The notes beneath the pieces are model-generated. The model worked only from the letters and a program-made list of their open reading frames with translations. It was not told the DNA's origin and ran no database searches. DNA of 64,000 nucleotides from Octopus vulgaris. Lineage: Eukaryota. The stretch spans positions 126,914,001-126,978,000 of the forward strand of contig OX597814.1 in the NCBI GenBank assembly GCA_951406725.2, read 5' to 3'. How positions within the stretch are numbered: the first letter of the stretch is position 1; every line of letters begins with the position of its first letter. Positions 10,152 to 50,511 of this stretch are shown in pieces. The position numbers were made by a program, and so were the translations under genes.

Positions 10152-10761
10152 CTTGTTTTATTTATATTTCCTGAGCGCCATACTAATACAATTGTTTGTT
10201 TGTTTCCCACCTGCCTTCGTCTTTGTCTATTTTCATAAAGCTTCCCGTTATATATATATATGTATATACACCTATGTATATACATGTGAGTATATATATA
10301 TGTATATACACATGTATGTATAGTTGTGTATATGTATTTGTAATTGTATTTGGATGTTAACCCTGGAGTTTACTCTATAAAGCTCATCCATGGGTCCAGG
10401 CTATCAGACAGATGGTAATCTGGAGATTGATTGTTATATCAAACACATACCTGAAAATCCACAAAAACCTGCAATTTCTCTACAATTATAACCGGAGAAT
10501 GGAGTGAGCAAGTTCTATTTCATTAATTTACAATTGTTTCCTGGAAAATCCATCTTGTGAGCATTACTGTATTATGCAATAATATTGAAGGTCAGAATCA
10601 TACAAGAAAGTTATTTGCAGTGGAAAATTGAGTTAACAATAATTTATACCTATATCGAGTAGGACATGCTTAAATGATTATATTTACATATTACAAGCCA
10701 AACAAAAGAGACCCAGGTTTGAGTTGACTGGTCAAGGAAGAATCAGAAAAAAAAAAGCATA

Positions 10762-11160
10762 TAGGCGTAGGAGTGGCTGTGTGGTAAGTAGCTTGCTTAC
10801 GAACCAAATGGTTCCGGGTTCAGTCCCACTGCGTGGCACCTCGGGCAAGTGTCTTCTACTATAGCCTTGGGCCAACCAAAGCCTTGTGAATGGATTTTGG
10901 TAGATAGAAACTGAAAGAAGCCCGTCAATGTATATATGTATGTGTGTGTATATATATTTTTGTGTCTGTGTTTGTCCCCCCCAACATTGCTTGACAACTG
11001 ATGCTGGTGTGTTTACATCCCCATAACTTAGTGGTTCAGTAAAAGAGATCAATAGAATAAGCACTAGGCTTACAAAGAATAAGTCCTGGGATTGATTTGC
11101 TCGACTAAAGGTGGTGCTCTAGCATGGCCACAGTCACATGACTGAAACAAGTAAAAAGAG
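10762..11160 (+). mobile_element. tRNA-derived SINE family A (CORE-like, internal microsatellite)
   Basis: A/B-box head, gggcaagtg core, tgactgaaacaagtaaaa tail; many copies in the window. Confidence 0.85.
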
Positions 11161-13997: not shown

Positions 13998-14218
13998 CCC
14001 TTTCGTTACTAACCTGGCTCTGACTGAGTACAAATATCTTGTGTTTTGTAAGTTTTGAATTAAAATCTTCCACGAAACCTTAGTCACAATTTATATTCCT
14101 AACACTAGCTGAATGATAACTAAGTTATTTTACCAAATTCTTTGTTATATTTAAAGTAATTGAAAGAAATACAGAGCATCTAAAAAAAAAATTTTTTTTA
14201 AATACAGTAATGAAAGGG
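13998..14218. mobile_element. piggyBac-type MITE
   Basis: TTAA|CCCTTTCGTTACT ... AGTAATGAAAGGG|TTAA. Confidence 0.85.
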
Positions 14219-14583
14219 TTAATTATATTTTATTAAATTTGAAAAAAAACTCCCAATGTTTACTTGTACTAACTTACCCAAATATCAGATTATTAATTGT
14301 GGAAACTAATCCAGTTTTATAAAACATTAATTGTAGTAGTAGATACCTCCAGACAGGCAGATTACCAGCCTATCACAGATACATTTTCTTTAAAGATGTT
14401 TCTAGTACTCTAATAAGATAAATTTTTCTAACTGATTTAGTATTTTGCTTATAACAATCATATGATTTGTGTGAAAAGTCAAGTTAACAAACAAGCAATT
14501 TACATTATAAAAATATGAACAGGAAAATATATCAATTCTGAGTGTATGCAATACTAGTTAAATATCAAAATTTATGTGTTTAA

Positions 14584-15654
14584 CCCTTTCGTTACTATAT
14601 TTCTGACCAAAATACCCTTAGGTGTTTCAATTAATTTCTAACATAATCATAAATTTAGTCTGGTTTCATTAAACAACTATAACTTTTTTATTTATCAATA
14701 TATTAACGTGAATTTTGGAAGATAATTTAATGAAATGTTCTCAACCAATTTTATACTATAATTTTTGTCACAAAGTGACTCTAATTGTAGGTAGATACAG
14801 GTAAATTCAACGAAATATAAAATTATTAAAATTTTGTTCAAACATTGCTATAGAAAATGGGTTATTAGCTAATATTCAATTGGGTATACAACAAAATTTT
14901 ACGATAGAATTTGTTATTCTGGGTAACTTTCTGATACCCATAATATTTATGGCAAAATAGTCTTAATTTCATTTAAGGTTGTGGGAAACCACTAACTACC
15001 CTTTCTTTTGTTTTGTTTACATTTAGCATAACAGTTCGTTTCCGCCGTAATGATTTCAAATAGGCTCATTTGAAAAAGTAAAAAGAAATAGTCTAAGGCT
15101 TTACTCTTCTGGGAAAGTCTGTAGCTTGGTCCAGTTTCTTCAGAAAAATCACCGAAAGAAACAGTTTTTAAATTTTCACTCCATTCAGGTGCCAATTCAT
15201 TTTCTTTATTGCTGTCGGAGCTCTCGGATTCACTGTTTTCACTTTCGGAAAATGAAACATCAGACTCATTATCAAATACCACATGCTTTTTTTTTTTTCA
15301 GTCATAGAGTTAGATTTATGAAGGTCTTCAGTAGAAAATCCTTCGAATTCTGACTCGCTGCTTGATATAATGAAATTCGTATCCATTTTTTGTCAGAATT
15401 ACAAATTTTGAAAACACAATAGGAACAAATTTCGGAAAAAAATCTCCCAAAATTCATGGAATTAAAATTACACTTCGATTTTTGTACAAAACTGTAGTTG
15501 AACTCTTTACGAAGTATAACACGTATTTTCACGAATGTACTAAAGAGATTTGCTCTGATATTCTCATTTAAATATGAATAGGTAAATTCAGGCGGCTTTG
15601 GGTGGTTTGGTCACATAACCAAAATTTTTTTCGAGCAGTTTGGTAACGAAAGGG
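14584..15654 (-). mobile_element. piggyBac deletion derivative retaining the transposase N-terminus
   Basis: TTAA TSDs, 12-bp TIR CCCTTTCGTTAC, acidic N-terminus and DYFFLLF...IITAETNCYA (14992-15386, frameshifted). Confidence 0.85.
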
Positions 15655-16229
15655 TTAAAGAATAGAACATAATCAAAGATAAGCCTTCATATAAGCTAAA
15701 AGAGAGCTGCTTTTTGTACAGAAACAGCAAAAGACACTTTAAAGCCTACTGGCTAGTCTGTTTATTTACACATAGATGCAAGCATGTGTGTGTACAACAT
15801 GTATGAGCACCAGTCTGTGAGAGCAGCGGCCCTCAATAAGAAAGACACAAACCATGATAACCTATCTAACCCATGCCAGCAGAGGAAGAGGATGTAAAAT
15901 GATTACATATATACATCTGTGTATATACACACTCAGATGAGAAAACCTCGACATGGCTGCTTGACCATGTAGAAATATTAACCAAATCAGATTTAAGACA
16001 GTAGTGCAACAAGTATAAGCATATTAAATGGTGAAGACCTTCGGTCCGAAATGACCATGTGATTACACCTAGAAAGTTCCCCTCTGAAGCACAAGTCCAG
16101 GCAAGGTTGTTTATAGAAGACTAACAGTCGCCCATGCATACCAGCCTCCCCTCTCATAATGTATATATTTGTTGTTTATATAGGAATAGAATTAGCTTGA
16201 TTTTTGTCAAAGTGAGGCAAAAATACAAA

Positions 16230-16445
16230 AGAATGTCTTAGAAAAGAGCAATCAGCTCAGAGAAGAATTTAGAGTACAGGTAGGTATCTATGAAGGTTTG
16301 GTTCTCAGCCCTCTTGTAGTATTATAGTAACCAAAGTTATCACAGAAGAGTTTGAGACAGGCTGTCCATAGGAACTCTTATGCTGATGACTTAGTTCTCA
16401 TAGCTGAATCCGTCAAAGAATTACAAATGTGGAAGCAAAGTCTAG
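16230..16445 (+). mobile_element. RTE-clade RT fragment
   Basis: ..VLSPL..EEFETGCP.EL.YADDLVLIAES. Confidence 0.65.
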
Positions 16446-16464
16446 ATTAATAATAATTTTACAT

Positions 16465-16797
16465 TTTACTTGTTTGTCATTTGACTGTGGCATTGCCTAG
16501 AAGGGTTTTAGTCAAAGAAATTGACCCCAAATCTTTCTTTTTTTTTAAAGCCTAGTACTTAGTCTATCGATGTCTTTTGCTGAACTGCTAAGTTACAGGG
16601 ATGTAAACACACCAACACCAGTTGTCGAGCAGTATATACGATGGGCTTCTTTCAGTTTCTGTCTACCAAATCCACTCACAAGGCTTTGGTTGACCTGAGG
16701 CTATAGTAGAAGACTCTTGCCCCAAGGTGCCATGCAGTGGGACTGAACCTGGAACCATGTGGTTGGGAAGCAAGCCTTTTACCACACAGCCATGTCT
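16465..16797 (-). mobile_element. SINE family A
   Basis: Reverse complement of the 10762 family. Confidence 0.8.
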
Positions 16798-17029
16798 GTT
16801 TCTAACTTAACCACAAGGCCAGTAATTTTAAGGGGATGATGTTAATTGATTGTATCCCAGTACTAGACAGGAACTATATTTTATCAACCCCAAAGCAAAG
16901 CTGATCTTGGTAGCATTTGAAATCAGAATGCAAAGAGTCAGAAGAAATAATAATAATGTTTTCTTACATAAATACAGGGCTATATCATTTTATGAATGAG
17001 CAGTTTTGAGCAATTTAATTCAAGGGTAG

Positions 17030-18520
17030 AGGGGCTAGTGATGGTTGTCATCTTACAGATATAGGGATAGGTATAGCAAATGTTGCTAGTGCATTTGAAG
17101 GTACTTGGTTGGGTGTGGCTTGGAAACTTCTACCTAAAAGGCTGCAGAGATTGAGTTGATCTCTGGTCAGTGAGTGGTGTCAATGCAGTTATCAATACTG
17201 AAACTGTCACGCTCTGGGGTGCATCCAGTGAACTGTACAAAACTCCTGGCCTTGACATGGTTGGCATAAAAGATCAGTGTCCACTGTTGACCTGCTGATA
17301 AAATTCATCAGAGAAGAAGCAATTCAAAGAGAGAATGTGTTTGACCAAAGGAGGAGGCTGGTATTACTGGGTTTAAATAGGAGTTAACAGTCAAGAAAGA
17401 GTTTAAGAGTGAAAAATGATTGCTGTCAGGGAAGACTGTGTAGAATGATTTTTATATCCATGTATGGCTGTGTGATAGCAAGAATTTTGCTATCAAACCA
17501 CATGGTTCTGAGTTCAGTCGCACTCTGTGGCACCTTGGGCAAGTGTCTTCTACTATAGCCTCAGGCTGATCAAAGCCTTGTGAGTGGACTTGGTGGACAG
17601 AAACTGAAAGAAGCCTGTCATGTATATTTGTGTGTAACTGTCCCCCATCACCACTTGACCGGTGTTGGTGTGTTTACGATTTGGCAAAACAGACTGATAG
17701 ATTAAAGTACAAAGCTTAAAAAAAAGTCCTGAGGTCGATTTCTTTGACTAAAACCCTTCAAAGTGGTGTCCCAACATGGCCACAATCAAATGGCTCAAAC
17801 AAGTAAAAGATAAAAATAAAATGTGTGTATGTGTATCACTTTGTCTTGACAGAGTATGCCAGTTGTAAACAAGCATCACTGTTATACAAAAGGTGTCCTT
17901 TGCTTCCAATCTTTGATGATAACATGTCCAACCATGGGGAATGTTACTTTGCTTGGAAACAAAAGGCATCAAGCCATAGAAAATCTGCTTCAACAAATTG
18001 TCTGATGCATAAAGCATGGAAAAGTGGATATTAAAACGACGATAATGATGGTAAAGGGAAGTTTGAAGAGTGAATGAGATCAACTTGAAGAGCTTTAGAG
18101 CATGATTGGCATTCATGTGTGATGGTAAGATAGAGACGAATGACAGTAGTTTGTTGAGGTACTCAGAGAAGAGTTCGGTAGAACAATTACAGGTGGAGAT
18201 GATGGTGTGGCTGAGATTTGGAAACAATTGGTGGAAATTCAGAGTGTAGTTATGATAAGGTTAGTGACAGCTGGGAGATGTAAATTGAGAGCTTCTGCAT
18301 AGTTGCAGAGATTTATTTCTGGCTGTAGCTCATAAAATCCATAGGCAATTGTTGTAGAAGTGAAAACTGTCGAGTTGGGTGTACTTCTTATTTGTAGAAG
18401 TCAGTTTTCTTGACTACTATGGCACCATCACATTGGTTAGCTTAATGATATTCTCAATACCTTGGAGTTTCTAGAAAACATCAAATTCTGACAGGAAATA
18501 TCTAACCACTTGTGCTGTTT
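17030..18520 (-). mobile_element. Old Penelope-like RT remnant, interrupted by a SINE A copy (17460-17812, +) and a family B-like tail
   Basis: IISTCNCSTELFSEYL..LPSH..ANHAL resembles PLE RPIIS.C.CPTE; decayed IIK.ADKG near 18430. Confidence 0.6.
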
Positions 18521-19384
18521 CCTAAAATCAAAGTTATTTAAATCATACACTTCTTGACAAATATGTTGAACAAGCTGTGTAGACCCACCTTAAAAGACAT
18601 TTAGAGGAAGTCTGTTTTAGTCGGTGAAGTCATCCTCAGTTGGCAGGTTCCATCCCTCTATTAAAGAATGAAGTCTTTAGTTGCATATACATTATGTGTG
18701 TTTGTAAATAAATATATATATGAGTGTATATGAGAGAGAGATACAGACACGGGAAAAGTTCTTTCCAAAGTCATTATTACTAGTTGATATTCTTGTAGCT
18801 TGGTTGAATTCAAGCTGATATTGATATTTACTGTACACAAAAGTTCTGAAAATTTAAAGCAATAAGGAAATGATAAACAGCATCAAATAAAAATATATTG
18901 TGTAAGTTCAAGGTTGACTAACAATATCAAAATACTGCCATTTTTTGAACTAAAACATTTGTTTTAACAAACAAATAAAGATGTGCAGTGTTCTTATAAA
19001 ATGTAGTCCTGAAATGTATTCCATCATAAAAGTGGTTGGGTCTTTGTCTTCAATAGAAATTTTTTTTCTTTTACTTGTAGAGGATATGAAGACTTCATGC
19101 AAACAGGAAGCAACAATTGGAGAATAGCTTGAAACATTTAGCATATAACTGTGTTCTTTGTTTCAGCAGTGTAGATCATAAAAGTGTTTGAGATGCTTCC
19201 TTGAAATTAAATAAAATTCAATTCTTCCATTCTGTTGATGACTCAAAACTCAAAGGTTTCAATACAGAAAGTAGTTGGATGAGTAAGAAACAAACTAAAT
19301 AGTGAAGTTGATATTTTAATAACTAAATATTTGGTGGAGAAATAAAATAAAAAAAAAAAATGAAAAGATATGATTTTTGGTTAG

Positions 19385-19390
19385 TTTATT
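19385..19390 (-). terminator. Candidate PRMT5 polyadenylation signal AATAAA
   Basis: tttatt on + strand, about 75 nt past the stop, followed on the - strand by a T-rich tract. Confidence 0.4.
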
Positions 19391-19463
19391 TCTATGAAAG
19401 CTGTTCAGTCAACATATGAATGTCATGATTCTATCCATGTGCACAGCTGCTGCTTTGTAAGAA

Positions 19464-19616
19464 TTACAGACCAATTGTATAGGACCGTCCCTTTGGGTTA
19501 TGGATTGGAAGAATCTGAGGCTCACGAATACACCATTCATACCAAACTTTACGATCTGTAACAACTCGCCAGAAATCAACAACAACACGGCTATCTTTCT
19601 TTAAGAATATTGGTTC
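19464..19616 (-). CDS. PRMT5: PRMT5 exon 17 (153 nt) EPIFL...VWYEW...[13 protein letters not shown]
   Basis: Poly-T plus ccAG acceptor; TAA at 19466-19464. Confidence 0.95.
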
Positions 19617-19751
19617 CTGGAAGAAAAAAAAAAAAAAAACGAATTTATTAATTAGGTTTTAACTGAAAGAAATGGCAATATAAGTAAATGACTTAGAAGC
19701 TTAAGTTTTAAACAGAATTAATATATACCCAGGTATTGCAATCTGAATAAC

Positions 19752-19788
<37 letters not shown>

Positions 19789-21161
19789 TTCATTGATATT
19801 TGCATTTTTATGAAAACTGTTCCCACTATTTTACTGTATTTATTGCACAAGTCAGTTGCTTCTTTATTAAATCTATATTTCACAATATAACAATGTCAAT
19901 GGTAAGCACATTGCTAAAATGCTTCCATCACCAAATAAATTAGCTCAGTACAAATGATCTAGTTAATAAAAGTAACAATTATATGATGTAGAAGTTTCCT
20001 AATACTAATTGAAACTTTCTAGTATTATGTAAAAAAGTGAACCAGCAATACCTTTATGGGGAAGAGTATTGGAAACCAACTAAACATTCCTGCAGAATGT
20101 GTTGAGGGGAGAATACCTGTAGAAAGAGAAGAGAAAGTGTGAGAATAATAAAATAGAGTTTCAAGTAAAAACTGGATAAATACAATTTCAAAACTAATTT
20201 CTAAGCAATATCAGATAAAATGTTAAATATTTAGGGAATATAGTGATTTGGAGAGGAAGATAACAACTTAGTAGGAAACGAATGTATGGAGTGTAATTGT
20301 TGTGATGAAACATGGAAATATATTTGAACATTGGATGGTAAATTAACTGATACAGTATACCAGATACACTCAGGACTAGAGTCACCTAGCTCAGTGTATC
20401 ACTCTCAGAAAGACAACGATAAGATTTTGACCTAGAATGTGACTAAGCTGGATAATTATCAGGTCTAATTTTACAGTCTATCATTAAGACTTGGAATAAG
20501 TTGTACTAACACTCCAGATATTAAAGTTTGTTTAGGGGGAAAAATTAAGTGAAACATGAAAACATTCTTTTATGATAAACAGGTGAGAAGTGTTTAGAAA
20601 AGGTGAAAATGTTTACAAGAGTATAGAGGCAGGTACAAGTTATAGAAGAGTAATTAATACAATCATTAGAAGGGAAGAGACATCTAATGAGAGAGAAATA
20701 CATTTTAGTGGTGAGGACAAAAGTAAATTTGAGAGAAAAATAGAAAGCTAATTGGATTGAGCAAAAGTTAAATGAAGTAAATAGTAAAGTGAAATCAAGA
20801 AACTTACTTAAAGTTACATTTCCATAAAGTACAGAATCAAAATATCCAGCAAAACCATGTAAGACGGCATCAGACTTAATATGAAACTGTATGCTCACAT
20901 AACGAGAATTATCAATCACTTCACCTAGAAAACAGAATTCATATCATCAAAGAATTTCACATGGATGTTAAACAAATGTAGGTGTAGGAGTGGCTGTGTA
21001 GTAAGTAGCTTGCTTATGAACCACATGGTTCTGGGTTCAGTCCCACTGCGTGGCACCCTGGGCAAGTGTCTTCTACTATAGCCTCGGGCCGACCAAAGCC
21101 TTGTGAGTGGATTTGGTAGATGGAAACTGAAAGAAGCCCATCGTATATATGCATGTATGTG

Positions 21162-37900: not shown

Positions 37901-40900
37901 AATGCCACTAAGCATTTTGCCAAGGATGCAAACGATTCTGCTGGCTATCCACCTTAATTATTTATTTATTTATGTGCCCTTTTTAAAGCCTAGCCAGGCT
38001 CATGGGCCCAGTTTCTATGGCGTATGAGTTCCCCCCAGCTGGACGGGACGCCAGTCCATCACAGCATTACTCACAGGAAGTTGGGGTGAAAGAGTACAAC
38101 AGGGGTCACCACCACCCCCTGCCGGAGCCTCATAGAGCTTTAGGTGTTTTTGCTCAATAAACACACACAATGCCCAGTCTGGGAATCGAAACCGCGATCC
38201 TCTGCTGCCCTAACCACTGGGCCATTGCGCCTTCACATCCACCTTAATTGCTTGTAATATATTAGAATTAACTTAAGTAACAATATCTCTTCCTCTATTA
38301 TCAGGCAATAATGGAAACAGTTTTGTACTGTCAACCTGCCTTTTAAGATTATCAATAACTCTATAACATATCATATAATGATATAAGTGATTAGAGAGTG
38401 AGGAAGATAAATGAATGGGCGATAAGAGGAAGTGGGGAAGAAACAGGTAATTAGCATTTATAGATAATCATTATTTAATGCAGTTAAGATAGTGTTTGAA
38501 GATTACACTGCAAACAAAGAGAACAGAAGTTAAAAATTAAAAAGAAAAAATGGTTATATAAAGGTATGTTATAATTATACAAAAATTGCTTTGCTTACCA
38601 TGGCTACTGAGTACAAGGTCTGATCTCGTTAAAGGGCCAGATCGCTTTTTACTGGGTCCACGAACAAATTCGCGTTTGTAGCGAGGATTCACAACAGGGA
38701 TGCACAGAAAGTCAAAACTGGAAGATATAAATATGTAAAATGAGGGGAGCTATTTTGATTGTCAATTGTATTTTAAATGAAATTATTAAATAATATATCA
38801 TCCACATCATTATCATCATCGTTTAACGTCTGTTTTCCATGCTGGCATGGGTTGGACAGTTCAACTGGGGTCTGGGAAGCCAGGAGGCTGCAGCAGGCCC
38901 CAGTCTGATCTGGCAGCGTTCCCACAGCTGGATGCCCTTCCTAACGCCAACCACTCCGAGAGTGTAGTGGGTGCTTTTTACATGCCACCGGCATGGAAGC
39001 CAGTCACAGCAGCACTGGCATCGGCCACATTCAGGGGTCACAACTACAATTTCCATTTGATTTGATTTTGATGTACTTGACTCAATAGGTCTCCTCAAGC
39101 ACGGAATGTTGCCCTATGATCCAAGGTACTTTCGAGTGGGCTGGTTATGTGACACTCGTGTAAGTTATAGCTGTGAACTCGCTTTATTTGCTAGGTCTTC
39201 TCAGTCACAACATATCTCAAGAGGTCTTGACCTTTTGTCATTGCCTCTGTGAGGCCCAACGTTCGAAGGTCATAGTTCACCACCTCATTCTATGTCTTCC
39301 TAGGTCTCCCTCTACTCTGGATTCCTTCCACAGTTTGGGAGTGGCAGTTCTTCACACAGCTCTCCTCGTCCATCCACAGTACATGACCATACCAACGCAA
39401 ATATCTCTCTTGCACACCACATCCACTGCTTCTTATGTCTAACATTTCTCTCAGGGCGCTTTCTCTCTATCGTGTGTGCACACTGACATTACACATCCAG
39501 TGGATCATGCTAGCTTCATTTCTTTCGTGCTTACGCATGTCTTCAGCAGTCATGGCCCATGTTTATATATGCATATATATATATATATATATATATATCT
39601 GACACAAGATCAACTTCATCATCTGACACAAGGTCACCTCGTCTAATGCTCCCTACTCTCTCAAAAGATTTTTGTCTTGCAAGTTACTTGGTGACCTTAT
39701 CACTTAAAAAGCATCCAGCTGTAAAATCCTTGCCAAAACTGACCTCGCCTGTGCTTGTGCCATGTAAAAAGCACTAAATCCACTCTACTGGGTAGTTAGT
39801 GTTAGGAAGGGCTGATCTGTCAGTGTTTCTACAGCTGGATGCCCTTCCTAACGCCATCTACTCTGAGAGTGTAGTGGGTGCTTTTTTACATGCCACCGCA
39901 CAGGGGCCAAAGGGGGCTGGCATTGACCACGATCCGATGGTGCTTTTTACGTGCCACTGGCTCGGGAGCCAGTCAAGGCGGTGCAGGCATCAGCCATGTT
40001 TGGATGGTGTTTTTTTACATGCCACCGGCACAGGAGCCAGTCTGCAAAGGAAAAATATATAAACACTGAGACAAGTTGAATTAAAATTAAAAACTGGCTA
40101 GTTTAAATCGTCTATACCCATAGAAACTGGTATTAAAACAAATACAGAGAATGAGAAAGTTTTTATCAGAAATAAGCTGTTACAAGTGATCAAAATGAGA
40201 AGGAAAATAAAGATTAAGATGAAAATTTATATAAGGGCAAATGAGTGTCACTGATACATAAAAAGAATAAAGATATCACAGAGAGGATCTTTTAGTCTTG
40301 TCAGGGATAAGACAACCTTTTTAGTGTTGTTGCAATAATAATAATATGCACCCAGTGCATTCTGTAAAATGGTTGTCAAATGAAAGGAGACAATGTAGAG
40401 TAGAGAGGCTAAGGACATAACCTCTCCAGTGCTGGTGCTACAATAAAATGCACCCAATACACTTTGTAAAGTGGTTGACATTAGGAAAGACATCCAGCAG
40501 TAGAAAACTTGTCAAAAATGAATTGTATGACTGAGATGTGGTCCCTGATTTATTTAGGGTAGCAGTAACTCGAAATAAGAACTGACACAGTCTGTGAAGA
40601 TCTGTCAGCATGATTGGGGTGATATCTCTGAATCAGCTCCATACATGTAGGAGGAATAAGTAGGATCAGAGATGACATAATCATGAAATTGCAAGAAGTG
40701 AAACATAACATGAGAACTTATAGAAAGAACTAAATATAAAGAAACCCCAGGTTAAATATTCCTCTCAGCTTAGATGTTGAATATAACCAGATCAATTGCT
40801 TACATTCAGAGATGCTACAATTCAAAATAAAATTGGTTAGTTATCTTTATCCCATATTTACAGAGATATACCACAACCAGACTCGTGTATCTCAACAATA

Positions 40901-43900
40901 GCAACTAAAACTGAAGGCATAGCAATGTGTGAGCCATCTTTTATCAAATGTGTTCAAGCTTTAACTATTAACTTGTAGCTTTACAAGACTGTAATTAATT
41001 TAATTACAACTATTTAGGAGAGACACCTGAATATAACCTAGGTGTTCTAAGTAATTGTACATTCCTGTTATATTTCCCAGCTTGTCACCTGGTAAAGAAG
41101 AAATTGCTCTTATATTTAAAAACTGCCCCATTGAAATTCACATTGAAACATCATGGTGATACCCCACCATATCCACAGAAACTACTGATGGCAGTGACTA
41201 AAAGACTTTTAAAAACTGTGTAAGTTATGTCTGAGGAGACTAAAAGTTGAGTAACTGATATTAGACAGACATTAAGAACAACAATTTGAAGAAAAAAAAG
41301 AACAATGGGCCATTGATAATTTCTCATGAGCCACTAATATTCAGATGATGTATAATGTTTCATATTTGAGAAGCAGGCACGGGTGTGTAGTTAAGAAGCT
41401 TAGTTCCCAACCATGTGGTTGTGGGTTCTTTGGTTTCAGTTCCACTGTATGACACTTTGGGCAAGTATCTTCTTCAATAGCACTATGCCAACCAAATCTT
41501 GTGAGTGGATTTGGTAGATGGTAACTGAAAGAAGCCCATGTATATATATATGTGTGTGTGTGTGTGCATGTATGTATGTATGTATGTATGTAGGGGGAGA
41601 ATTAACAAAAAAACAAAAGACGAAGACAGGTGGTGTAGTCTTTAATGTTTCAAGCCTACACTCTTCCACAGAAAGAAACAAGGAGAGAAAATATGAATGT
41701 ATGTATGAGTTAATGTGTGTGATGGTTGTAAATGAGCAGCATCATTATACAAGTAATGTCATTTGTTTCCAGTCTTCTGTGAAAAACATGTCAGGGCATG
41801 GGAGATATTACCTTGCTTGGAAACAAGTTAGGGTTAGAGGCAAGTATGGGCATTTGACCATAGAAAATCTGCCTCAACAAATTCCATCTAATCCATGCAA
41901 GTATAGAAAACCAAATGTTAAATGATGACAATGATGATTTATAGAAGTAGTTTAAGAATAGAATGTATAAGAGAAATATTGTTCTAGATAAGGAACTCTA
42001 TTGCTATAGGAAAGCAAACAAATTAGTAAAAGAACTGCTGTGATAGTAATGGTAGATCACAGTAATTCCAACAGTTGTATTACAACTAGAAAGATTATTA
42101 TTAATATAGATGAGGCTCTTAATATTCATCATGAATTGGAGGAATAATATAATCCTTTCCACTACAGGCACAAAATCTGGGGGCTAATCAATTTTATTGA
42201 CCCCCAGTATTTGACTGGTACTTACTTTATCAATCCCAAAAGGATGAAAAGCAAAGTCAACCCCAGTAGAATTTGAGCTCTGAACATATAGACAGACAAA
42301 ATGCCACTAAGCATTTTGTCCAGCATGCTAGTGATTCTGCCAGCTCGCTGCCTCAATGGTAGGAATAATAACAATAATAATAACCCTTTCTACTAAAGGC
42401 ACAAGGCCTGAAGTTTTGGGGGAGGAGGCCAGTGTTTCACTGGTACTTGTCAACCATGAAAGGATCAAAGGCAAAGTTGACCTCAGCAGAATTTGAACGT
42501 AAAAAGCACCCACTACACTCATGGAGTGGTTGGTGTTAGGAAGGGCATCCAGCTGTAGAAACACTGCCAGATCAGACTGGAGCCTGGTGCGGCCTACTGG
42601 CTTTCCAGACCCCAGTCAAACCGTGAAACCGTCCAACCCATGCTAGCATGGAAAATGGATGTTAAACGATGATGATGATGATGAACATCAAGGTAGATAA
42701 AATGCTTTTTAGAGCTGAAATTGACTTGCAAGCCTTTCACACACTACACATGTCAAATCACCGAGTCTAGGAGTAAAGATGTTGTATACAGTTGATCTTT
42801 TATATGAACAAAGATGGTTGACAGACCCAACCTTAAAATAGAGTACATGGCTACTTGTTTCACACCTCCAACACATTGTGCACTTCACTTTGCACATACA
42901 TTACATACATTGCTAAGATCACATTTGCAGGTGATGTAAAGTCAATCATGTGAGCATTCTTAGATCTTGTTAACCTGTACCATATTAAGCCAGCTATCAG
43001 ATAAACTAGACACAATCTGAGTTAAGAAGTTGACTATCAGTGTTGTAGGAGCATGTACTTTGGGTATGCCAGGTGAATACTTCATACTTACCAGAGGTAG
43101 TAAAATCATTATAAATATTAAGTTCACTCAATAGTCATGTATTATGATGAGCAACTAATTTTTCTATTATCACTTTTTTCGTGCATACAGGCTTGTCCTT
43201 TCAGGTGCTAGTGCCACATAAAAAACACCCGGTGCTGGTGCTGCATAAATGCACTTGTGCCAGTGGCACATAAAAAGCACCCAGCACACTCTGTTAAGTG
43301 GTTGGCTTTAGGAAGGGCAACCAGCCATAGAAATCATGCCACAGCAGACAACTGGAGTCTGGATAGCTCCCAGCTGGCCAGCAGCATGTCAAACCATCTA
43401 ACCCATGCCAGAATGGAAAACAGACATTAAATGATGAAGATGATACTCTACTCTTTTACTTGTTTCAGTCATTTGACTGTGGCCATGCTGGAGTACCGCC
43501 TTTAGTCGAGCAAATCGACCCCGGGACTTATTCTTTGTAAGCCCAGTACTTATTCTATTGGTCTCTTTTGCTGAACCGCTAAGTTACGGGGACGTAAACA
43601 CACCAGCATCGATTGTCAAGTGTTGGGGGGACAAACACAGATACACAAATATATACATATATGACGGGCTTCTTTCAGTTTCTGTCTACCAAATCCACTC
43701 ACAAGGCTTTGGTTGGTGTGAGGCTATAGTAGAAGACACTTGCCCAAGGTGCCACGCAGTGGGACTGAACCTGGAACCATGTGGTTCGTAAGCAAACTAC
43801 TTACCACACAGCCACTCCTATGATGATGTAATATTGTGACAGTTGTTCTGATATAACACTACACACCTCACAATTAGTTGTATTATGATATGTACTGGGC

Positions 43901-46900
43901 AGATAGCAAAATAATGGGAGAGTGACAAAAATGAGGACTGTAAGTGACATTTCACCAATTTTGCCAGTACACAACCCCTTTATTATTTGCTTCTACACCT
44001 CTCCCTAAAAATTCTGACCCTCCTCAACTAACATCTTAATTCACCTACTTTTCTAATTCATTCATCCCTCACCTCTCCAATTCTTTCAGTCTATATTAGT
44101 CTATTATATAAGACTCATATTTGCTTCCCCATTCCTCTCTAATAAATACTATGAGAGAAGTTGCATATATAAATTCTGAAAACATTTCTTTTTGAGTAAT
44201 ATATTATTCAAAAGTTTAGCATAGTAATATTGTGCACACTGTGACTATAAACACCATTCACAACAAAATATGACAAGGGTTGCCTTGCAATTTTCATAGG
44301 TATTTTAGTGATTAAGCACCCTTTAGCCTGTATTTTACATCATTACTTTAAGGAAGAATAATAAATTAAAGAAGACACATGTGAGCTTCTGGATAAACCA
44401 GAAACTGGAACTTAAAGAAAGAGATTGGCACATTTACAGTGAGAGTTTGTGAAGATTATAATGTTAAAAAATAAAGTTTTAGACACACACAACGTAAAAG
44501 ACAAACTCATTGCATTTTCCTTTAAATATAATGTTGATGTAAATTCTGAATCATCTGCTGGGACAAGGAAGTGTATGAATGTCACAAAGGATATCTTGGG
44601 GAGGCACATGGCCTAGTGGTTAGAGCAGCAGACTTGCGGTCGAGGGATCGTGAGTTTGATCCTCAGACCGAGCGATGTGCATGTTTATGAGCGAAACACC
44701 TAAGCTCTGTGCGGCTCCGGCAGAAGGTAATGGCGAACTTCTGCTGACTCTTTCACCACAACTTTCTCTCACTCTTTCCTCCTGCATCTTGCAGCTCACC
44801 TGCGACGGACTGGCATCCTGTCCAGGTGGGGAACCTATACGCCAAGGAAACCGGCCCTTATGAGCCAGGCGTGGTTCAAGAAGGAACAAACAACAAAATG
44901 ATGTAATGAGTTATCTATCAATAATCCTGAGGTAACAATGTCCACAGTGGAGAAATTCGGTTCTACTGCCAAACTAACTAGACATACGGGTATTGAGAAC
45001 GTCAAAGAAAGTGACAAGTGGTTATTATGATTTAGATGTTGCTATGGAATGGGTAACAAAGTGACCCATGGCGAGTCAGGGAGTGCATTAAGGAAATCAA
45101 ACCATTCAGGAACATGCTAAATAATGTAATTAAATATGAAGGGTACTAATCTCTCAAAGTAGAAGTGTGATGAAACTGGATTATATTGAAGTTGGCTACC
45201 TTGGAATAACTAAGCTCTTAAGAATAAAAACTCCACACCTGAACATCAATGAAATAAGGAATGCTTTTGTGGTATGGTGTTGCATGAATGCAGACAGTCT
45301 GTACTATCTACAATTAGTGGCAAGAAAGGGGTAAATCAGCATATCCATGTTATCATTCCAAAAATTGAGGTTGAAGATGCAAATCTTTAATGACTGGTTT
45401 TTCTTGCACTTCCCTGCATGTGTGAATACCAGAAAGTTTTCCTCAAACTTTCTGTTAATGAGATGAAGGCACTACTAATTTCGGACATTGCACCTACTCA
45501 GCAGATGGTCATCAAATTCTCTGTAAAGCTGGTGAAATATAATGTATGTTCTTACCACCCAATGTTATTGCCACAATCCAGTCAATGAATCAAGGAATAA
45601 TTGTAGTCTGTGATAGACAAAAATATTAAGATGAAGTTCTTGTTATCATCTTTATTTAACATCAGTCTTGTTGTCAAGCAGTAGTAGGGGACAAACACAT
45701 ACATAGATATACACACACACACATATATATCTTTTATCTTTTACTTGTTTCAGTCATTAGACTGCAGCCATGCTGGAGCACTGCCTTGAATTTTTCGTCT
45801 AATGAATTGAGCTCAGTACTTATTTTTTAAGTGTGGTACTTATTCTATCAGTCTTTTGCCGAACTGCTAAGTTACAGGGACATAAACACACCAACACCAG
45901 TTCTCAAGTAGTAAGGGGGGGAACAAACACACATAGATATATATACATATACTAGCAGTATAGCCCGGCGTTGCTCGGGTTTGTCTTTTAGGTGCGCTTA
46001 AAATGGCAGACTTTGATGTCGCGTTAATAAAGTTTTGACATAGTTTCAATCTTTCTTGAAAAGTAAAAATTTTGCATTATGTAGCTTGTTATTCTCTTTA
46101 AGTGAACATTTTTCTGGTTGAAATACACCGAAAACTGGCAACACAGCAGTCTAAAAATCGTAAAAAATAGGGATTTTCATAGAAAACCCCCCCACCTTTT
46201 TGATGTATATAATTTTTGGTTTTAACATGGTTCGATTTGAATCTTTTCTTCTATGGAACAAAGAGCAAGCCTTCTTCTATCATACTCTCAATTTTGGTCA
46301 ACTTGCGCTGCAGGGTCTCAGAGGAGATAGTGTTAGTTGAAGGCTACCAAACCTGACACACACACACAGACAACTTCAGCTTTATATGTATAGATATATG
46401 ACGAGCATCTTTCAGCTTCTGTCTGCCAAATCCACTCACACAGCTTTGGTTGACCTGAGGCTTGGAAGAAGACACTCCCCCAAGGTGCAGTAAGACACAC
46501 ACATAGAAACCATGCCATAAGAGACCACTGGAGTCTGGACAGCTCCTGTCAAACAATCCAACCTACGCCAGCATGGAAAACAGACATTAAATAATGATAT
46601 ACATACACACACACAACAGGTTTCTTTCAGTTTCCATCTACCAAATTCAGTCTCAAGTCTTTGGTTAGCCTGGGGCTATAGCTGAAGACACTTGCTCAAG
46701 GTGCCTCAAAGTGGGACAGAACCTGGAACCATGCATTAAGTAAACTTCTTACCACAGCCATGCACGCACCTAAAATGTATCAGAATCTACTCAGACTTGA
46801 ACTCTGATTGCTGGATTTGTAATATACAAATATATCAATTAACTCAGACAACCGGCTAAAATGAACACCCTTTTCCTTATCAGTATAGTTAGAGGAGGGT

Positions 46901-49900
46901 TTACTGCATGTGTGGGTGTGTGTGTGTACCTTCCAGAATACTTTTCCTAGTTTTGGAACTTGAAAATTTTTTTTCAATTACTCATTATTCTCAGCATTCA
47001 TTGGTCTAGGGAGTGGAATAGGAATCCCTAGAGAATCATTATATATATATATAAAATCATCATCATTTAACGTCCATTTTCTATGCTAGAATGTGTTGGA
47101 TGGTTTGACCGGGGTCTGGGAAGCCAGGAGGCTGCACCAGGCTCCAGTCTGATCTGGTAGTATTTCTACAGCTGGATGCCCTTCCTAACGCCAACCACTC
47201 TGTGAGTGTAGTGGGTGGTTTTTACATGCCACCGGCTCGGAAGCCACTCAAGGCGGTGTTGGCATATATATATATATAAACATTATGGATGTGTGTATGA
47301 TGAAGATGATGACTTATTGCCCAAGAAAAAATCCCTTGCTAATATCATTTTGTACATTAACTTGTCAACAGAAAGTGATGAAGCAACAGTGGAAACTTCA
47401 CATACACACATTGCAAAAATGAAAAAAAAATGTATTTTCTATTCCTAAAATAGTAAAATAAGCTATAGCAGAGTAGTGAAGGCATGGAACCAATAAAGAT
47501 TAGAAAAAATAAAATATGCATTATGCATTGGATGTGAGAAATATCAAAGGTATGGTCATGTGGATAATAAGTTCACTTTGCAGCTACACATTTTCAAGCT
47601 GGATCAGAGTGACACCTTGGCAGGTGCTTTCCACTAGAGCCTTGAGTGGATCAAAACCTTATGAAACTAGTTAAATCGAAACTGTGCAGAAGCCTGTCAT
47701 TTTTTGTTCCTTCTTGAACCATGCCTGTCATTTTTTGTTCCTTCTCGAACCATGCCTGGCTCATAAGGGCCTGTTTCCCGGTTTCTGTGGCGTATAGGTT
47801 CCCCACCTGGACGGGACGCTGGTCCATCACAGGTGAGCTGCAAGATGCAGGAGGAAAGAGTGAGAGAAAGTTGTGGCAAAGGAGTCAGCAGAAGTTCGCC
47901 ATTACCTTCTGCCAGAGCAGCATGGAGCTTAGGTATTTCGCTCATAAACACACACATCGCCCAGTCTGAGATTCGAAACCGCGATCCCCCGACCGTGAGT
48001 CCGCTGCTCTAACCATTAGGCCATGTGCCTCCACAGAAGCCTGTCAGAGAGACTACAACTGTTCTTGGATGGTGGACTAAATCTGTCATCTGATTTAACA
48101 TCACAATTTTGCCCTTTGATGATTCTAGTAGTGTACAGACTATTGCAAGCATTGAAACTAGGTCTCAGTCTGACATCTTCACACCAATCACAGAGTCTGA
48201 AAAGGAACATAGGTATTGCCATTCCTCCTTTGGCTTAAGCTATGGAAAAAAACAAAGAGAAAGTATTTAAAATGAGTGAGAAGTAGAAACAGTTGTATGT
48301 TGATAGTGATGTGTATGGATGCTCCAATCAGGCTTAACCGAACAGATCAATGACTGATTAAAGATGTTTTAGTTATGGTTGTTCTTTCATCATCATCATT
48401 GTTTAACGTCTGCTTTTCATGCTAGCATGGGTTGGACGATTTGACTGAGGACTGGCAAACCAGATGGCTGCACAAGGCTCCAATCTTGATCTGGCAGAGT
48501 TTCTACAGCTGGATGCCCTTCCTAATGCCAACCACTCCGAGAGTGTAGTGGGTGCTTTTACGTGCCAGTCAAGTGGTACTAGCAATGGCCATGCTCAAAT
48601 GGCGCTTTTTATGTGCCACCTGCACAAGAGCCAGTCCAGTGGCACCGGCAACGACCTTGCTCAAATGTTTTTTCACGTGCTACCAGCACAAGTGCCAGTA
48701 AGGCGACGCAGGTAACAATCATGCTCCAATGGTTTCTTTTTTTTTTTTTCATGTGGCAAGAGAGGACTGAAGGAGTTTGGTTTTTATTTCTAGAAGTTCC
48801 ATTGTTGCTTCTGCTATTGTATGGAGAATAATTAGGTGGAATGAGGATTGGAAGTTGAAAGAAATAAGAATCTGATCCCACAGAAGAAAGAAGACAACAT
48901 CATTGGAAATAGAATGTGTTCATATTCGGTTTTTATCAACAAGATGATAGATGAGTCATTTTATGTGGAGCAATTACAGATGATACAATACTTGTTGATC
49001 GGCTACTTTACCATACATTTACTGTAGAGTGGCCACTAACAAATGATAGAATACTATGGGAGTACTCAGTTACAAGTGATAAATTACTGAACACTCACTG
49101 TAAAGTGGCCAGTTACAGACAATAAATTACCCAACACACTATCAAGAGCCCAGTTACAGAATATAAAAAACTATACACTTATTGTGAGTTGGTCACTTAC
49201 AGGTAATAAATTACTAAAGAAATACTCTGCAGAGTGGCCACTTACAAGTAATAAATTTACATTTGACGGATATTTGTCCTCATCTTGTTTGTTGTTAACA
49301 CAACGTTTCGGCTGATATACCCTCCAGCCTTCATCAGGTGTGTTGTGGAAATTTCGAACCTGGGTTCTCATTCCTAAGGTATTTTTCGATGTTAGGAATG
49401 AGAACCCAGGTTCGAAATTTCCCCAAGACACCCGATGAAGGCTAGAGGGTATATCAGCCGAAACGTTGTGTTAACAACAAACAGGATATGGACAAATATC
49501 CGTCAAATGTAAATAATTCCTCATCTCTTAAATATAGAACTGAAGCAATAAATTCTACACACTTTTGTGGTGATCACGTTTATATATATAAATATATATG
49601 TGTGTGTGTGTGGAGAGAGAGAATGATATTGTTAAATATATATATATAGGCATAAGATAAAGTTAATCCTGTTGTGAAGTTGATTGTACAATATAGTAAC
49701 AAGTGTGAAAATATGACCATCAGTTTCTATAAATACAATGGATCAACAAATATTGAATTTCTATTTTAGTGAATGATGAATCAAAGTTTCGGTTTTCTGT
49801 GATAAATTTCCAAAACCTGTTCAGTTATGTGATAGAAACCTGTCTCTTTACGTTATGGACTGATAATAAAGAAGACAAATGAAGTTGAACGACAAAATCA

Positions 49901-50511
49901 AGCCGAAATTTCTGGAGGAATCAAAACTACACGAAGAATGAGAAAATATCAAAAGAATTGAATTCAATTATTTATCTAAAAACAAATGTTTGAAAAATAT
50001 CGTTGATTTCTAAAATATCAATATACAGAAATCAAGCTGCAATTAAAACAAAAATTTATTTAATCCTAACAGAGCAGACCTATGATCAAAGACATTTCAG
50101 CCGTGACCACACCATCTCGTTTTCAGACAGTGTATCCCGGACCAAGTTATCTGAATGTGGGCGCCTTTTATCTTAATGCGGTGGAGTCGGTAACTTGGAA
50201 GGCTATTTTATAATATTTACAAGGTTGAACGATCACAGAAAAGTCGGCTCGTTTAAGTATTTAAGAGATGGTTAAATAAAAAAAAAACATGCAACTATGA
50301 AGACAATTCTGAAACGATAATGTCACAGAAAAATGGACGAAACTAGGAAGAGGAAAGTAAGAGTTTAGGAATGCCAGGAAAATAACTGGGTACTTGTATC
50401 AATAGAATATTGAACTTACCCTGATTTGCAGGAGCTATCAAGAACAGTATTAATATCTGGACAACAATTAAAGTCCCGAGCACAAGAAACACGTGCAACC
50501 GAGTTGGCCAT
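19464..50511 (-). CDS. PRMT5: Protein arginine N-methyltransferase 5, 17 coding exons, 630 aa (gene span)
   Basis: Exons sum to 1893 nt, all introns GT-AG, phases compatible. Motifs [48 protein letters not shown] and C-terminal GRSYTIGL*. Confidence 0.96.
20052..20116 (-). CDS. PRMT5: PRMT5 exon 16 (65 nt) [21 protein letters not shown]
   Basis: FSW loop; tacAG acceptor, GTATTG donor. Confidence 0.94.
20808..20924 (-). CDS. PRMT5: PRMT5 exon 15 (117 nt) EVIDNSRY...[18 protein letters not shown]
   Basis: ttctAG acceptor, GTAAGT donor. Confidence 0.94.
20980..21398 (+). mobile_element. SINE family A, full length, PRMT5 intron 14
   Basis: Head, core, (TA)n(TG)n and tail present. Confidence 0.88.
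22471..22707. mobile_element. Foldback-type MITE with tandem 30-bp units in inverted arms
   Basis: GGTAAGTTCACTG...CAGTGAACTTACC termini; unit aagttcactgtcatcaatttactgcaagga. Confidence 0.65.
23208..23301 (-). CDS. PRMT5: PRMT5 exon 14 (94 nt) [13 protein letters not shown]...FRHPNR
   Basis: tttcAG acceptor, GTAAGT donor. Confidence 0.94.
25461..25570 (-). CDS. PRMT5: PRMT5 exon 13 (110 nt) [25 protein letters not shown]...PE
   Basis: ttctAG acceptor, GTTCGT donor. Confidence 0.93.
26110..26382. repeat. Degenerate ~40-bp minisatellite
   Basis: ctccactatatgtat.tggtatttata.agtgatactg, about 7 units. Confidence 0.65.
26990..27374 (+). mobile_element. Non-autonomous Helitron-like element
   Basis: 5' TC, subterminal CCCG..CGGG hairpin, 3' CTAG; homologous copy at 45952-46394. 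Confidence 0.7.
27503..27678 (-). CDS. PRMT5: PRMT5 exon 12 (176 nt) [11 protein letters not shown]...[25 protein letters not shown]
   Basis: Double-E loop; tccAG acceptor, GTAATC donor. Confidence 0.95.
27808..27930 (-). CDS. PRMT5: PRMT5 exon 11 (123 nt) [13 protein letters not shown]...VEKNPNAIV
   Basis: SAM-binding motif I; ttgcAG acceptor, GTAAGT donor. Confidence 0.95.
28091..28149 (-). CDS. PRMT5: PRMT5 exon 10 (59 nt) [19 protein letters not shown]
   Basis: cgtAG acceptor, GTAAGT donor; supplies the phase required between exons 9 and 11. Confidence 0.92.
28842..28919 (-). CDS. PRMT5: PRMT5 exon 9 (78 nt) [26 protein letters not shown]
   Basis: tttcAG acceptor, GTAAGA donor. Confidence 0.95.
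30239..30310 (-). CDS. PRMT5: PRMT5 exon 8 (72 nt) [24 protein letters not shown]
   Basis: ttacAG acceptor, GTAAGC donor. Confidence 0.93.
30455..30690 (-). mobile_element. RTE-tail repeat, family B
   Basis: (CAT)n-gtttaacgtccgctttccatgctagc. Confidence 0.8.
31397..31779 (+). mobile_element. Helitron-like element with a long terminal hairpin
   Basis: A|TC start, CTAG|T end, ctagcactatgacc..ggtcatagtgctag. Confidence 0.7.
32000..32089 (-). CDS. PRMT5: PRMT5 exon 7 (90 nt) LDVQLILTG...[10 protein letters not shown]
   Basis: ttgcAG acceptor, GTGTGT donor. Confidence 0.9.
32197..32569 (-). mobile_element. SINE family A
   Basis: Near full-length copy. Confidence 0.88.
33238..33548 (+). mobile_element. 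SINE family A, internally deleted
   Basis: Head and tail match the family. Confidence 0.8.
33581..33794 (-). CDS. PRMT5: PRMT5 exon 6 (214 nt) WHTFRTLC...[19 protein letters not shown]
   Basis: ttttAG acceptor, GTACTT donor. Confidence 0.93.
34681..34793 (-). CDS. PRMT5: PRMT5 exon 5 (113 nt) [13 protein letters not shown]...DYNTWY
   Basis: ttccAG acceptor, GTAGGT donor. Confidence 0.9.
35770..35901 (-). CDS. PRMT5: PRMT5 exon 4 (132 nt) [15 protein letters not shown]...HSYWQQ
   Basis: ttccAG acceptor, GTAAGT donor. Confidence 0.92.
36648..36733 (-). CDS. PRMT5: PRMT5 exon 3 (86 nt) [28 protein letters not shown]
   Basis: tgtAG acceptor, GTTAGT donor. Confidence 0.93.
37405..37956 (-). 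mobile_element. Two copies of tRNA-derived SINE family D (Nin/Deu-like core)
   Basis: aaaggatgaaaggcaaagttgac core, same family as the 59348 array. Confidence 0.75.
37960..38236 (-). mobile_element. tRNA-derived SINE family C variant with 13-bp TSD
   Basis: TSD atccaccttaatt at 37947-37959 and 38237-38249; (TAAA)n tail. Confidence 0.85.
38599..38717 (-). CDS. PRMT5: PRMT5 exon 2 (119 nt) [17 protein letters not shown]...[10 protein letters not shown]
   Basis: ttccAG acceptor, GTAAGC donor. Confidence 0.93.
38805..39560 (-). mobile_element. 3' end of an RTE-clade LINE that carries the family B tail
   Basis: Decayed [28 protein letters not shown] followed by the family B 3' UTR. Confidence 0.75.
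41595..41692 (-). mobile_element. Penelope tail fragment with a decayed hammerhead-like motif (41639-41676)
   Basis: Reverse complement matches 10075-10230: UCUUU-CUGUGGA-A-GAGU(GUAG)GCUU-GAAAC-AUU-AAAGA. Confidence 0.65.
42498..42683 (+). mobile_element. RTE-tail repeat, family B
   Basis: ggaagggcatccagctgtagaaac...(GAT)n. Confidence 0.8.
43446..43820 (-). mobile_element. SINE family A, inserted in the (GAT)n tail of a family B copy (43190-43444)
   Basis: Full-length copy flanked by gatgat repeats. Confidence 0.85.
44600..44893 (+). mobile_element. tRNA-derived SINE family C
   Basis: ggaggcacatggcctagtggttagagc A-box head; homologous to 47700-48033. Confidence 0.85.
44900..45620 (+). mobile_element. 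Decayed pogo/Tigger DDE transposase
   Basis: [36 protein letters not shown]. Confidence 0.75.
45952..46394 (-). mobile_element. Helitron-like element inserted in the microsatellite of a SINE A copy (45730-46490)
   Basis: A|TC..CTAG|T termini; homologous to the 26990 copy. Confidence 0.75.
47700..48033 (-). mobile_element. SINE family C with 13-bp TSD and a duplicated 3' end
   Basis: TSD cagaagcctgtca at 47687-47699 and 48034-48046. Confidence 0.88.
48387..48750 (-). mobile_element. RTE-tail repeat, family B (another copy at 47057-47265)
   Basis: Family consensus match. Confidence 0.8.
49020..49254. repeat. Degenerate ~42-bp minisatellite
   Basis: agagtggccacttacaagtaataaattact-like units. 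Confidence 0.65.
49255..49514. repeat. Inverted repeat, 123-bp arms (7 mismatches), 14-nt spacer
   Basis: 49255-49377 is the reverse complement of 49392-49514. Confidence 0.95.
49298..49341 (-). ncRNA. Minimal type I hammerhead ribozyme motif, PRMT5 intron 1, sense orientation
   Basis: ACAC-CUGAUGA-A-GGCUG(GAGGGUAUAU)CAGCC-GAAAC-GUU-GUGU. Confidence 0.72.
50420..50511 (-). CDS. PRMT5: PRMT5 coding exon 1 (92 nt) [31 protein letters not shown]
   Basis: ATG at 50511; RVSCARD resembles the PRMT5 N-terminus; donor GTAAGT. Confidence 0.9.

What the first reader, a model, noticed from the sequence alone, without database searches (positions are those of the whole stretch)
49255..49514. Hammerhead-ribozyme palindrome in PRMT5 intron 1: intact copy in pre-mRNA sense, mutated copy antisense
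Seen: two 123-nt arms with 7 mismatches and a 14-nt loop, about 900 nt into intron 1. The - strand arm (49341-49298) has CUGAUGA, an extra A, a 5-bp stem II, GAAA, a palindromic ACGU stem III, a GUU triplet and a 4-bp stem I. The + strand arm has a U4C core change and a stem II mismatch. Known: Penelope-like elements carry minimal hammerheads that usually need dimerisation and often leave inverted pseudo-LTRs; cephalopods edit dsRNA heavily. Inference: the transcript makes the antisense arm first, so the hairpin should sequester the ribozyme and form an ADAR substrate. This could be a self-locked cleavage switch in an essential gene, or just a neutral relic.
Basis: partly seen in the sequence, partly recalled or inferred. 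Interest (0 to 1): 0.75.

Follow-up and report, generated by a model that had tools for sequence, protein, structure and literature searches.

The report
Back-to-back Penelope retroelement relic
The mirror-image sequence in the PRMT5 intron is one of thousands of similar leftover ends of a Penelope-type jumping gene, and its self-cutting RNA motif is likely locked and inactive there, so it is probably an ordinary relic and not a switch for the gene.

Summary
The palindrome and the minimal hammerhead are real, in the first coding intron of PRMT5 (49255-49514). But they are one 5'-truncated, head-to-head insertion (49258-49542, 12-bp target-site duplication) of a high-copy Penelope/Poseidon-type retroelement. 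Its 42-nt hammerhead core occurs exactly 1,055 times in the genome; 16 of 30 core-picked copies have an inverted partner; the arms encode the first ~50 codons of the element's RT-endonuclease ORF. 'Antisense arm first' follows from the geometry of any such pair. The intact/broken asymmetry fits neutral decay: 2 vs 5 changes (p=0.45), and core positions mutate like flanks across copies (3.6% vs 4.0%). Forcing the ribozyme fold inside the hairpin costs about 72 kcal/mol, no dimer partner of this family lies in the window, and published motifs of this type do not cleave as monomers. The left junction is shared with three other coded organisms, at a divergence that fits the arms' decay. Editing could not be tested. 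The arrangement is in print (Cervera 2014; Craig 2021). The unusual part is family-level: a tRNA-like head opening the repeat, and a one-long-end/one-short-end rule (39 of 42 pairs); this scan noted both before on other DNA.

The parts
49246..49257 (+). Left target-site duplication copy (12 bp, last 3 nt ATT shared with the element's short end)
   Evidence: 11 of 12 identical to 49543-49554
49255..49391 (-). Short-end arm: 5'-truncated pseudo-LTR copy, sense in the PRMT5 pre-mRNA; carries the 14-nt 'loop' (49378-49391) as its own 5' extension; 2 changes in 137 nt from the family majority
49298..49341 (-). Minimal type I hammerhead with intact core; predicted cut between 49302 and 49301; stem I reduced to 4 bp
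   Evidence: descriptor from PMC4209133
49392..49542 (+). Long-end arm: pseudo-LTR copy with the ~30-nt tail, ending at the family's fixed terminus; 5 substitutions and one 9-nt unit missing; encodes the first ~50 codons of the element ORF from ATG 49398, with a stop
49428..49471 (+). Second hammerhead copy with U4C (49433) and stem II change (49444); antisense in the pre-mRNA
49392..49394 (+). Inversion junction with TTA microhomology; the identical junction recurs at 8 of 28 structure-picked loci
   Evidence: (loose ends)
49543..49554 (+). Right target-site duplication copy
50420..50511 (-). PRMT5 first coding exon (host context)
38718..50419 (-). PRMT5 first coding intron, 11,702 nt, GT-AG (host context)

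Best explanation
This is one 5'-truncated, head-to-head insertion of a high-copy Penelope-type retroelement end with a 12-bp target-site duplication, and its hammerhead is predicted to be locked in the hairpin and likely has no role for PRMT5. Inferred mechanism of origin: the element's GIY-YIG-type nuclease cut both strands of an AT-rich site about 12 bp apart; each nick primed reverse transcription on element RNA, one at the distal start site (long end, 49542) and one about 30 nt upstream (short end, 49255-49258); both cDNAs stopped near the (AAT)n tract and were joined through TTA (or the centre was deleted later through the same TTA). Since then both arms have decayed neutrally. In the pre-mRNA the antisense arm is made first and pairs with the sense arm as it emerges (computed end state; kinetics inferred), giving a 123-bp duplex that would be a passive ADAR substrate and is removed with the intron.
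For: Copy number: 1,055 exact 42-nt cores, 5,472 matches to a 31-nt pattern with 3 free places, reversed controls 0. Same arms join an ORF in frame: L090 reads openly from the hammerhead into the ORF; RT hit RVT_1 E 1e-9; C-terminal domain aligns with a relative (P0012, 34%, E 1e-16) whose matching region has a weak GIY-YIG hit, E 0.0098, below cut-off. Inverted partner within 1.4 kb in 16 of 30 core-picked loci. Exactly one long end in 39 of 42 pairs; duplication score >=7 in 22 of 39 vs 125 of 1,482 mismatched flank pairs. Neutral decay: core 24/668 vs other sites 215/5,425, p=0.75; stems 56/1,146, p=0.16; only 20 of 69 copies not picked for an exact core are fully intact; this locus 2 vs 5, p=0.45. 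Ribozyme fold costs 72 kcal/mol in context, and stem I pairs at only 0.002-0.05 even without the partner arm. Only these two arms of the family lie in the 64 kb. Papers: opposite-strand dual minimal hammerheads 100-700 bp apart and no monomer cleavage (PMC4209133); inverted 5'-truncated copy and one-sided 30-40 bp tail (PMC8557442); two RT start sites bounding the tail, cleavage of both strands at ATT, protein-assisted hammerhead at the ORF start (PMC11167929).
Against: The insertion is retained in four coded organisms (A, C, D, E; left junction only), and the pre-mRNA-sense arm is the better kept one (2 changes, none in the core); 7 changes give little power, so weak selection is not excluded. 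The state of the hammerhead in the orthologous copies could not be read from contigs. No RNA data. The GIY-YIG call has no Pfam hit on this genome's own copies. The two arms of a pair share derived changes more often than arms of different loci (17/334 vs 206/13,995), which does not fit two wholly independent templates without some shared source or gene conversion. TSDs were not found in 17 of 39 pairs.
Confidence: 0.88

Rival explanations
1. Self-locked cleavage switch: the sense hammerhead can cut PRMT5 pre-mRNA when the hairpin is opened (by ADAR, helicase or element protein), and the host keeps it for that.
For: Intact core on the transcribed strand, broken core on the other; insertion shared by four coded organisms; intronic hammerheads are suggested regulators in amniotes (passage in PMC6765202).
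Against: 72 kcal/mol barrier and poor folding even alone; no stem III without a second sense copy, none in the window; the 4-nt palindrome duplex is only -1.7 kcal/mol; sense arm lost a stem I pair; asymmetry common (6 of 22 pairs); editing enough to open the duplex would likely also hit core adenosines (inference from the hammerhead core).
Confidence: 0.03
2. The ribozyme is irrelevant but the hairpin is used: it is a kept dsRNA that recruits ADAR or Dicer/Drosha, affecting PRMT5 splicing or making small RNAs that silence the element family.
For: Near-perfect 123-bp duplex, 73 adenosines in the arms; the tightest of 7 inverted pairs of 60 nt or more in the window; octopus has the highest editing rate of 22 species (passage in bioRxiv 10.1101/2020.01.19.911685).
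Against: No compensatory change among the 7 differences; many equivalent hairpins exist genome-wide; 877 nt from the 5' splice site; editing of repeats is expected without function. No RNA evidence either way.
Confidence: 0.07
3. A non-autonomous palindromic unit (MITE-like or a palindromic RNA master) that spreads as a whole.
For: Identical 14-nt-loop junction at 8 of 28 structure-picked loci.
Against: Ends are asymmetric and the short end varies; junctions in the 30 core-picked loci vary from overlap to 820 nt apart; the loop sits on the long arm in some copies and on the short arm in others; TSDs are 9-17 bp and vary, not TA-type; the loci were picked for likeness to this junction.
Confidence: 0.04

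Closest known systems
Penelope/Poseidon-clade PLEs, e.g. Poseidon_Ac of the green anole (Frangieh et al. 2024, PMC11167929; parts 1-2 of 4 read)
   Same: RT then C-terminal nuclease in one ORF; hammerhead at the ORF start inside the pseudo-LTR; a 30-40 nt tail between two ends; ATT at the short-end junction here.
   Different: Here the repeat opens with a tRNA-like head and an (AAT)n tract; the ATG lies about 35 nt before the core rather than at stem II; all copies I read are decayed.
Minimal type I hammerheads of metazoan PLEs (Cervera & De la Pena 2014, PMC4209133; parts 1-2 of 4 read)
   Same: Core, extra nucleotide between A9 and G10.1, G10.1-C11.1 pair, palindromic 15.2-16.2 with no loop 3, 4-5 bp helix I; dual motifs on opposite strands 100-700 bp apart already reported.
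   Different: Helix II is 5 bp (6 with G-U), shorter than the 7-8 bp given for schistosomes; this sequence has not been assayed.
Inverted PLE insertions (Craig et al. 2021, PMC8557442; passages seen)
   Same: Inverted 5'-truncated copy at the 5' end, tail at one end only, variable-length TSD.
   Different: Here both copies are truncated to the pseudo-LTR; the one-long/one-short rule is near strict (39 of 42).
Schistosome SINE-like hammerhead repeats, Sm-alpha/Sj-alpha (passage in review PMC6765202; primary papers not read)
   Same: Pol III-type promoter followed by a hammerhead.
   Different: Those are non-coding repeats with hammerheads that cleave in vitro; here the tRNA-like head is part of a coding PLE, and this locus lacks the head altogether.
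Non-LTR retrozymes (Li et al. 2026, bioRxiv 10.64898/2026.07.22.740005; part 1 of 5 read)
   Same: Type I hammerhead related to PLE pseudo-LTRs.
   Different: Retrozymes are head-to-tail tandem arrays; this is a head-to-head pair and the sequence is the ORF start of an autonomous element.

Membership tests
EN+ Penelope-like elements (family of origin) | Reverse transcriptase ORF joined to the repeat | tested here: met
   RVT_1 E 1.2e-9 on L062; frame open from hammerhead into ORF in L090; 4 of 20 ORF-5' loci carry the sense repeat directly upstream
EN+ Penelope-like elements (family of origin) | C-terminal GIY-YIG endonuclease with CCHH motif | tested here: inconclusive
   No Pfam hit on 3 of 3 own C-terminal fragments; aligned relative P0012 has GIY-YIG at E 0.0098, below cut-off; two Cys between the tyrosine motifs and two His are visible in alignment A1
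EN+ Penelope-like elements (family of origin) | Pseudo-LTR at both ends of the ORF carrying a hammerhead | tested here: met
   Repeat downstream of ORF stop and upstream of ORF
EN+ Penelope-like elements (family of origin) | Inverted 5'-truncated copy, one-sided 30-40 bp tail, variable TSD | tested here: met
EN+ Penelope-like elements (family of origin) | RT phylogeny placing it in the Penelope/Poseidon clade | not tested
   No tree built; clade name inferred from domain order and likeness to PMC11167929
Minimal type I hammerhead | Conserved core CUGANGA / GAAA / UH with helices I and II | tested here: met
   (minus arm); plus arm fails at U4
Minimal type I hammerhead | Extra nucleotide 9/10.1, G10.1-C11.1, palindromic 15.2-16.2 | tested here: met
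   against PMC4209133
Minimal type I hammerhead | Self-cleavage as a dimer or with protein help | not testable with these tools
   needs bench assay
Rfam hammerhead families | Score against an Rfam hammerhead model | tested here: not met
   no hammerhead hit at E<=10
Non-LTR retrozyme | At least two head-to-tail units with complete hammerheads | tested here: not met
   two arms, head-to-head
tRNA-derived SINE | tRNA-derived head with A and B boxes | tested here: not met
   Absent at this locus. In other copies A- and B-box motifs are present but the tRNA model scores only 10.9 bits, E 9.7; ARAGORN 0 of 37 loci
MITE | Symmetric terminal inverted repeats with short fixed TSD | tested here: not met
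   ends asymmetric in 39 of 42 pairs; TSD 9-17 bp
Host-co-opted intronic ribozyme | Conservation above neutral expectation at the orthologous site | tested here: inconclusive
   site shared; arm divergence 2 vs 5, p=0.45; orthologous core unreadable

The most novel reading that the evidence does not exclude
The parent element is a protein-coding Penelope retrotransposon driven by a captured tRNA-type RNA polymerase III promoter at the start of its terminal repeat, and it inserts by priming from both DNA nicks at its two RT start sites, which makes back-to-back, self-quenching hammerhead hairpins as a routine product. For: A- and B-box motifs in the head; head-(AAT)n-repeat-ORF order in L094; 7 of the 13 core-picked sense arms with an upstream match begin within 7 nt of the head start; no run of four T on the sense strand in 2,585 nt of majority sequence against 2.5 expected, p=0.09; 39 of 42 pairs with one long and one short end. 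I found no paper on it, but the library lacks Repbase and most subscription papers, and this scan noted both points before.
Probability: 0.3. Interest if true: 0.6.

Novelty: new member of a known kind. Interest (0 to 1): 0.2.

Why it matters
As a locus it matters little: it is a typical Penelope insertion scar. It is useful as a clean example of how these insertions are built (TSD, long end, short end, microhomology junction) and as a reminder that this genome holds thousands of ready-made intronic dsRNA hairpins that would feed ADAR. If the family-level reading holds, a coding retroelement read by Pol III and a two-nick priming rule would bear on the open question of how Penelope elements transpose.

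Tried and rejected
Rfam: only microRNA-hairpin hits below gathering score, no hammerhead; tRNA not found by ARAGORN or in 7 whole loci. No RNA holder listed by the run search; all runs were contigs, so editing, strand and cut ends could not be read; I laid DNA-type runs only. Organism B gave no cover of the left flank: no conclusion. U4C as a source subfamily: 10 of 69 in my loci but inflated by picking with a query that has it; 4 of the first 100 genomic matches, like the 5 of 100 for T>C at N7; rejected. ADAR footprints in genomic copies: A>G 16.9 and T>C 21.4 per 1,000, below G>A 45.9 and C>T 32.7; none seen. One vs two RNA templates from arm differences: undecided. Synonymous-codon null for T4 absence (p=0.037) discarded because the majority sequence had lost its frame (21 stops). 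The dimer cofold gave a non-hammerhead structure; the crossed dimer cannot be scored by that program. ESM Atlas gave no result; Lunse et al. 2017 (PMC5785218) is not held and was not read. Rows dropped: L059 and L064 (duplicates) from all counts; L001 (this locus) and L017 (tandem array) from the rate counts; pairs with an arm not covering the motif from the intactness count. The 30 core-picked loci are the first 30 matches along contig C1, not a random sample. No supplements were read; PLE consensus files there could already describe this family.

Full report
Observation. The palindrome is as described: arms 49255-49377 and 49392-49514, 123 nt, 7 mismatches, 14-nt loop. The minus-strand RNA folds into one hairpin at -205.7 kcal/mol, z -33.8. 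The minus arm holds a complete minimal hammerhead with the predicted cut between 49302 and 49301; the plus arm has U4C and a stem II change. Rfam has no hammerhead hit; the motif matches the published minimal descriptor instead (PMC4209133, parts 1-2 read). PRMT5 lies on the minus strand; the first coding intron runs 50419-38718, with exon 2 a strong match to human PRMT5 and exon 1 a weak but collinear one.

What it is. A search of the own genome gave 2,392 candidate places, 40 scored, most of them full palindromes. The 42-nt core occurs exactly 1,055 times, a 31-nt pattern 5,472 times, reversed controls 0; with about 4.5% divergence per copy this points to 10,000-20,000 arms (inference). Other copies show what is missing here: upstream lie an (AAT)n tract, a tRNA-like head and the end of an ORF; downstream the sequence runs in frame into the same ORF (L090; 4 of 20 loci carry the sense repeat directly before the ORF). 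The ORF has an RT domain and a C-terminal domain that aligns with a relative bearing a weak GIY-YIG hit. So both arms are 5'-truncated pseudo-LTR copies and encode the first ~50 codons of a Penelope-type ORF.

Anatomy of this insertion. It extends past the palindrome to the family's fixed terminus at 49542 and is framed by a 12-bp duplication, 49246-49257 and 49543-49554. One arm carries the ~30-nt tail, the other stops short, overlapping the duplication by ATT. This is the rule: of 68 loci scanned, 42 held a head-to-head pair, and 39 of the 42 have exactly one long end; 22 of 39 show a duplication scoring 7 or more, against 125 of 1,482 mismatched flank pairs. Among 30 loci picked only for an exact core, 16 have an inverted partner within 1.4 kb. 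The 14-nt loop is the 5' extension of the short arm, joined through TTA; the same junction recurs at 8 of 28 loci picked for likeness to this one, with the loop on either arm. Papers describe the parts: an inverted 5'-truncated copy with a tail at one end (PMC8557442, passages), two RT start sites bounding the tail and cleavage of both strands at ATT (PMC11167929, parts 1-2), and dual minimal hammerheads on opposite strands 100-700 bp apart (PMC4209133). Priming from both nicks is my inference from these; a later central deletion through the same TTA cannot be told apart. Arms of a pair share derived changes more than unrelated arms (17/334 vs 206/13,995), so fully independent templates are not shown.

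Is it a switch? In any head-to-head pair the first arm transcribed is antisense, on either strand, so the order is geometry, not design. The asymmetry is within chance: 2 changes in the sense arm, 5 in the other (p=0.45); one intact and one broken motif in 6 of 22 scorable structure-picked pairs including this one; 20 of 69 copies not picked for an exact core are fully intact; core sites mutate at 3.6% and other sites at 4.0% (p=0.75). U4C stands in 4 of the first 100 genomic matches, while the free position N7 varies in 27 of 100 (my count of the listing), which suggests the motif was kept in the source elements rather than in the inserted copies. The sense arm has itself lost the fifth stem I pair. 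Forcing the ribozyme fold in the hairpin costs 72 kcal/mol, and even alone stem I forms at 0.002-0.05. No third copy of the family lies in the window. A published monomer of this type showed no cleavage and dimers little (PMC4209133); the anole motif cut only with element protein and was not needed for insertion in vitro (PMC11167929). Against my reading: contigs of organisms C and D run from the left flank into the element, as do three of three runs of organism E, which has one extra 9-nt unit, so the insertion is shared. But E differs by 14 of 342 flank letters, about 2% per lineage, close to the 7 of 288 that the arms have drifted: a neutral insertion just older than that split fits. The right junction and the orthologous core could not be read, and X2 may be this DNA's source.

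Editing. No RNA holder was listed and all runs were contigs, so this is untested. A 123-bp duplex with 73 adenosines should be edited in an animal with high editing (bioRxiv 10.1101/2020.01.19.911685, passages), but six other inverted pairs of 60 nt or more lie in the window and editing of repeats needs no function.

What is unusual. At family level the repeat opens with A- and B-box motifs (tRNA model only 10.9 bits), 7 of the 13 core-picked sense arms with an upstream match begin within 7 nt of that head, and the sense strand has no T4 run in 2,585 nt (expected 2.5, p=0.09). Searches (listings only) showed no Pol III-driven coding Penelope; the nearest precedent is the schistosome Pol III hammerhead SINE (passage in PMC6765202). 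Earlier notes of this scan report the tRNA-headed repeat and the short-end/long-end rule on other DNA of this genome; they are unchecked notes, and I tested both points here. This locus lacks the head.

Verdict. Observation confirmed; interpretation partly supported (relic yes, switch unlikely). New member of a known kind; interest 0.2.

Noticed in passing
window 48991-49257: Degenerate 76-84 nt tandem repeat into whose last unit the element inserted; organism E has one more unit.
   Followed up: partly
window 50041-50162: Another high-copy repeat end between exon 1 and the palindrome, seen as very high contig depth.
   Followed up: no
window 44597-44854 and 47778-48035: 258-nt inverted pair, 88% complementary, 2.9 kb apart, also inside the PRMT5 intron; a further likely dsRNA.
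   Followed up: no
L017 1-1499: Head-to-tail array of about 19 units of ~76 nt, each a degenerate hammerhead part of this family, next to a palindromic copy: a retrozyme-like satellite.
   Followed up: no
L044, L051, L054, L056 upstream of the (AAT)n tract: Copies abut the 3' ends of other repeats through a shared (AAT)n run, suggesting insertion into or template switching at such tracts.
   Followed up: no
L022 2161-2690 and L003: L022 has a second repeat inside a near-complete pair; L003 has two long ends, the one exception of that kind among 42 pairs.
   Followed up: partly
G000:C1 21.17-22.16 Mb: Three head-to-head pairs whose arms carry A and C at hammerhead position N7; possibly local duplications of one insertion.
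   Followed up: no
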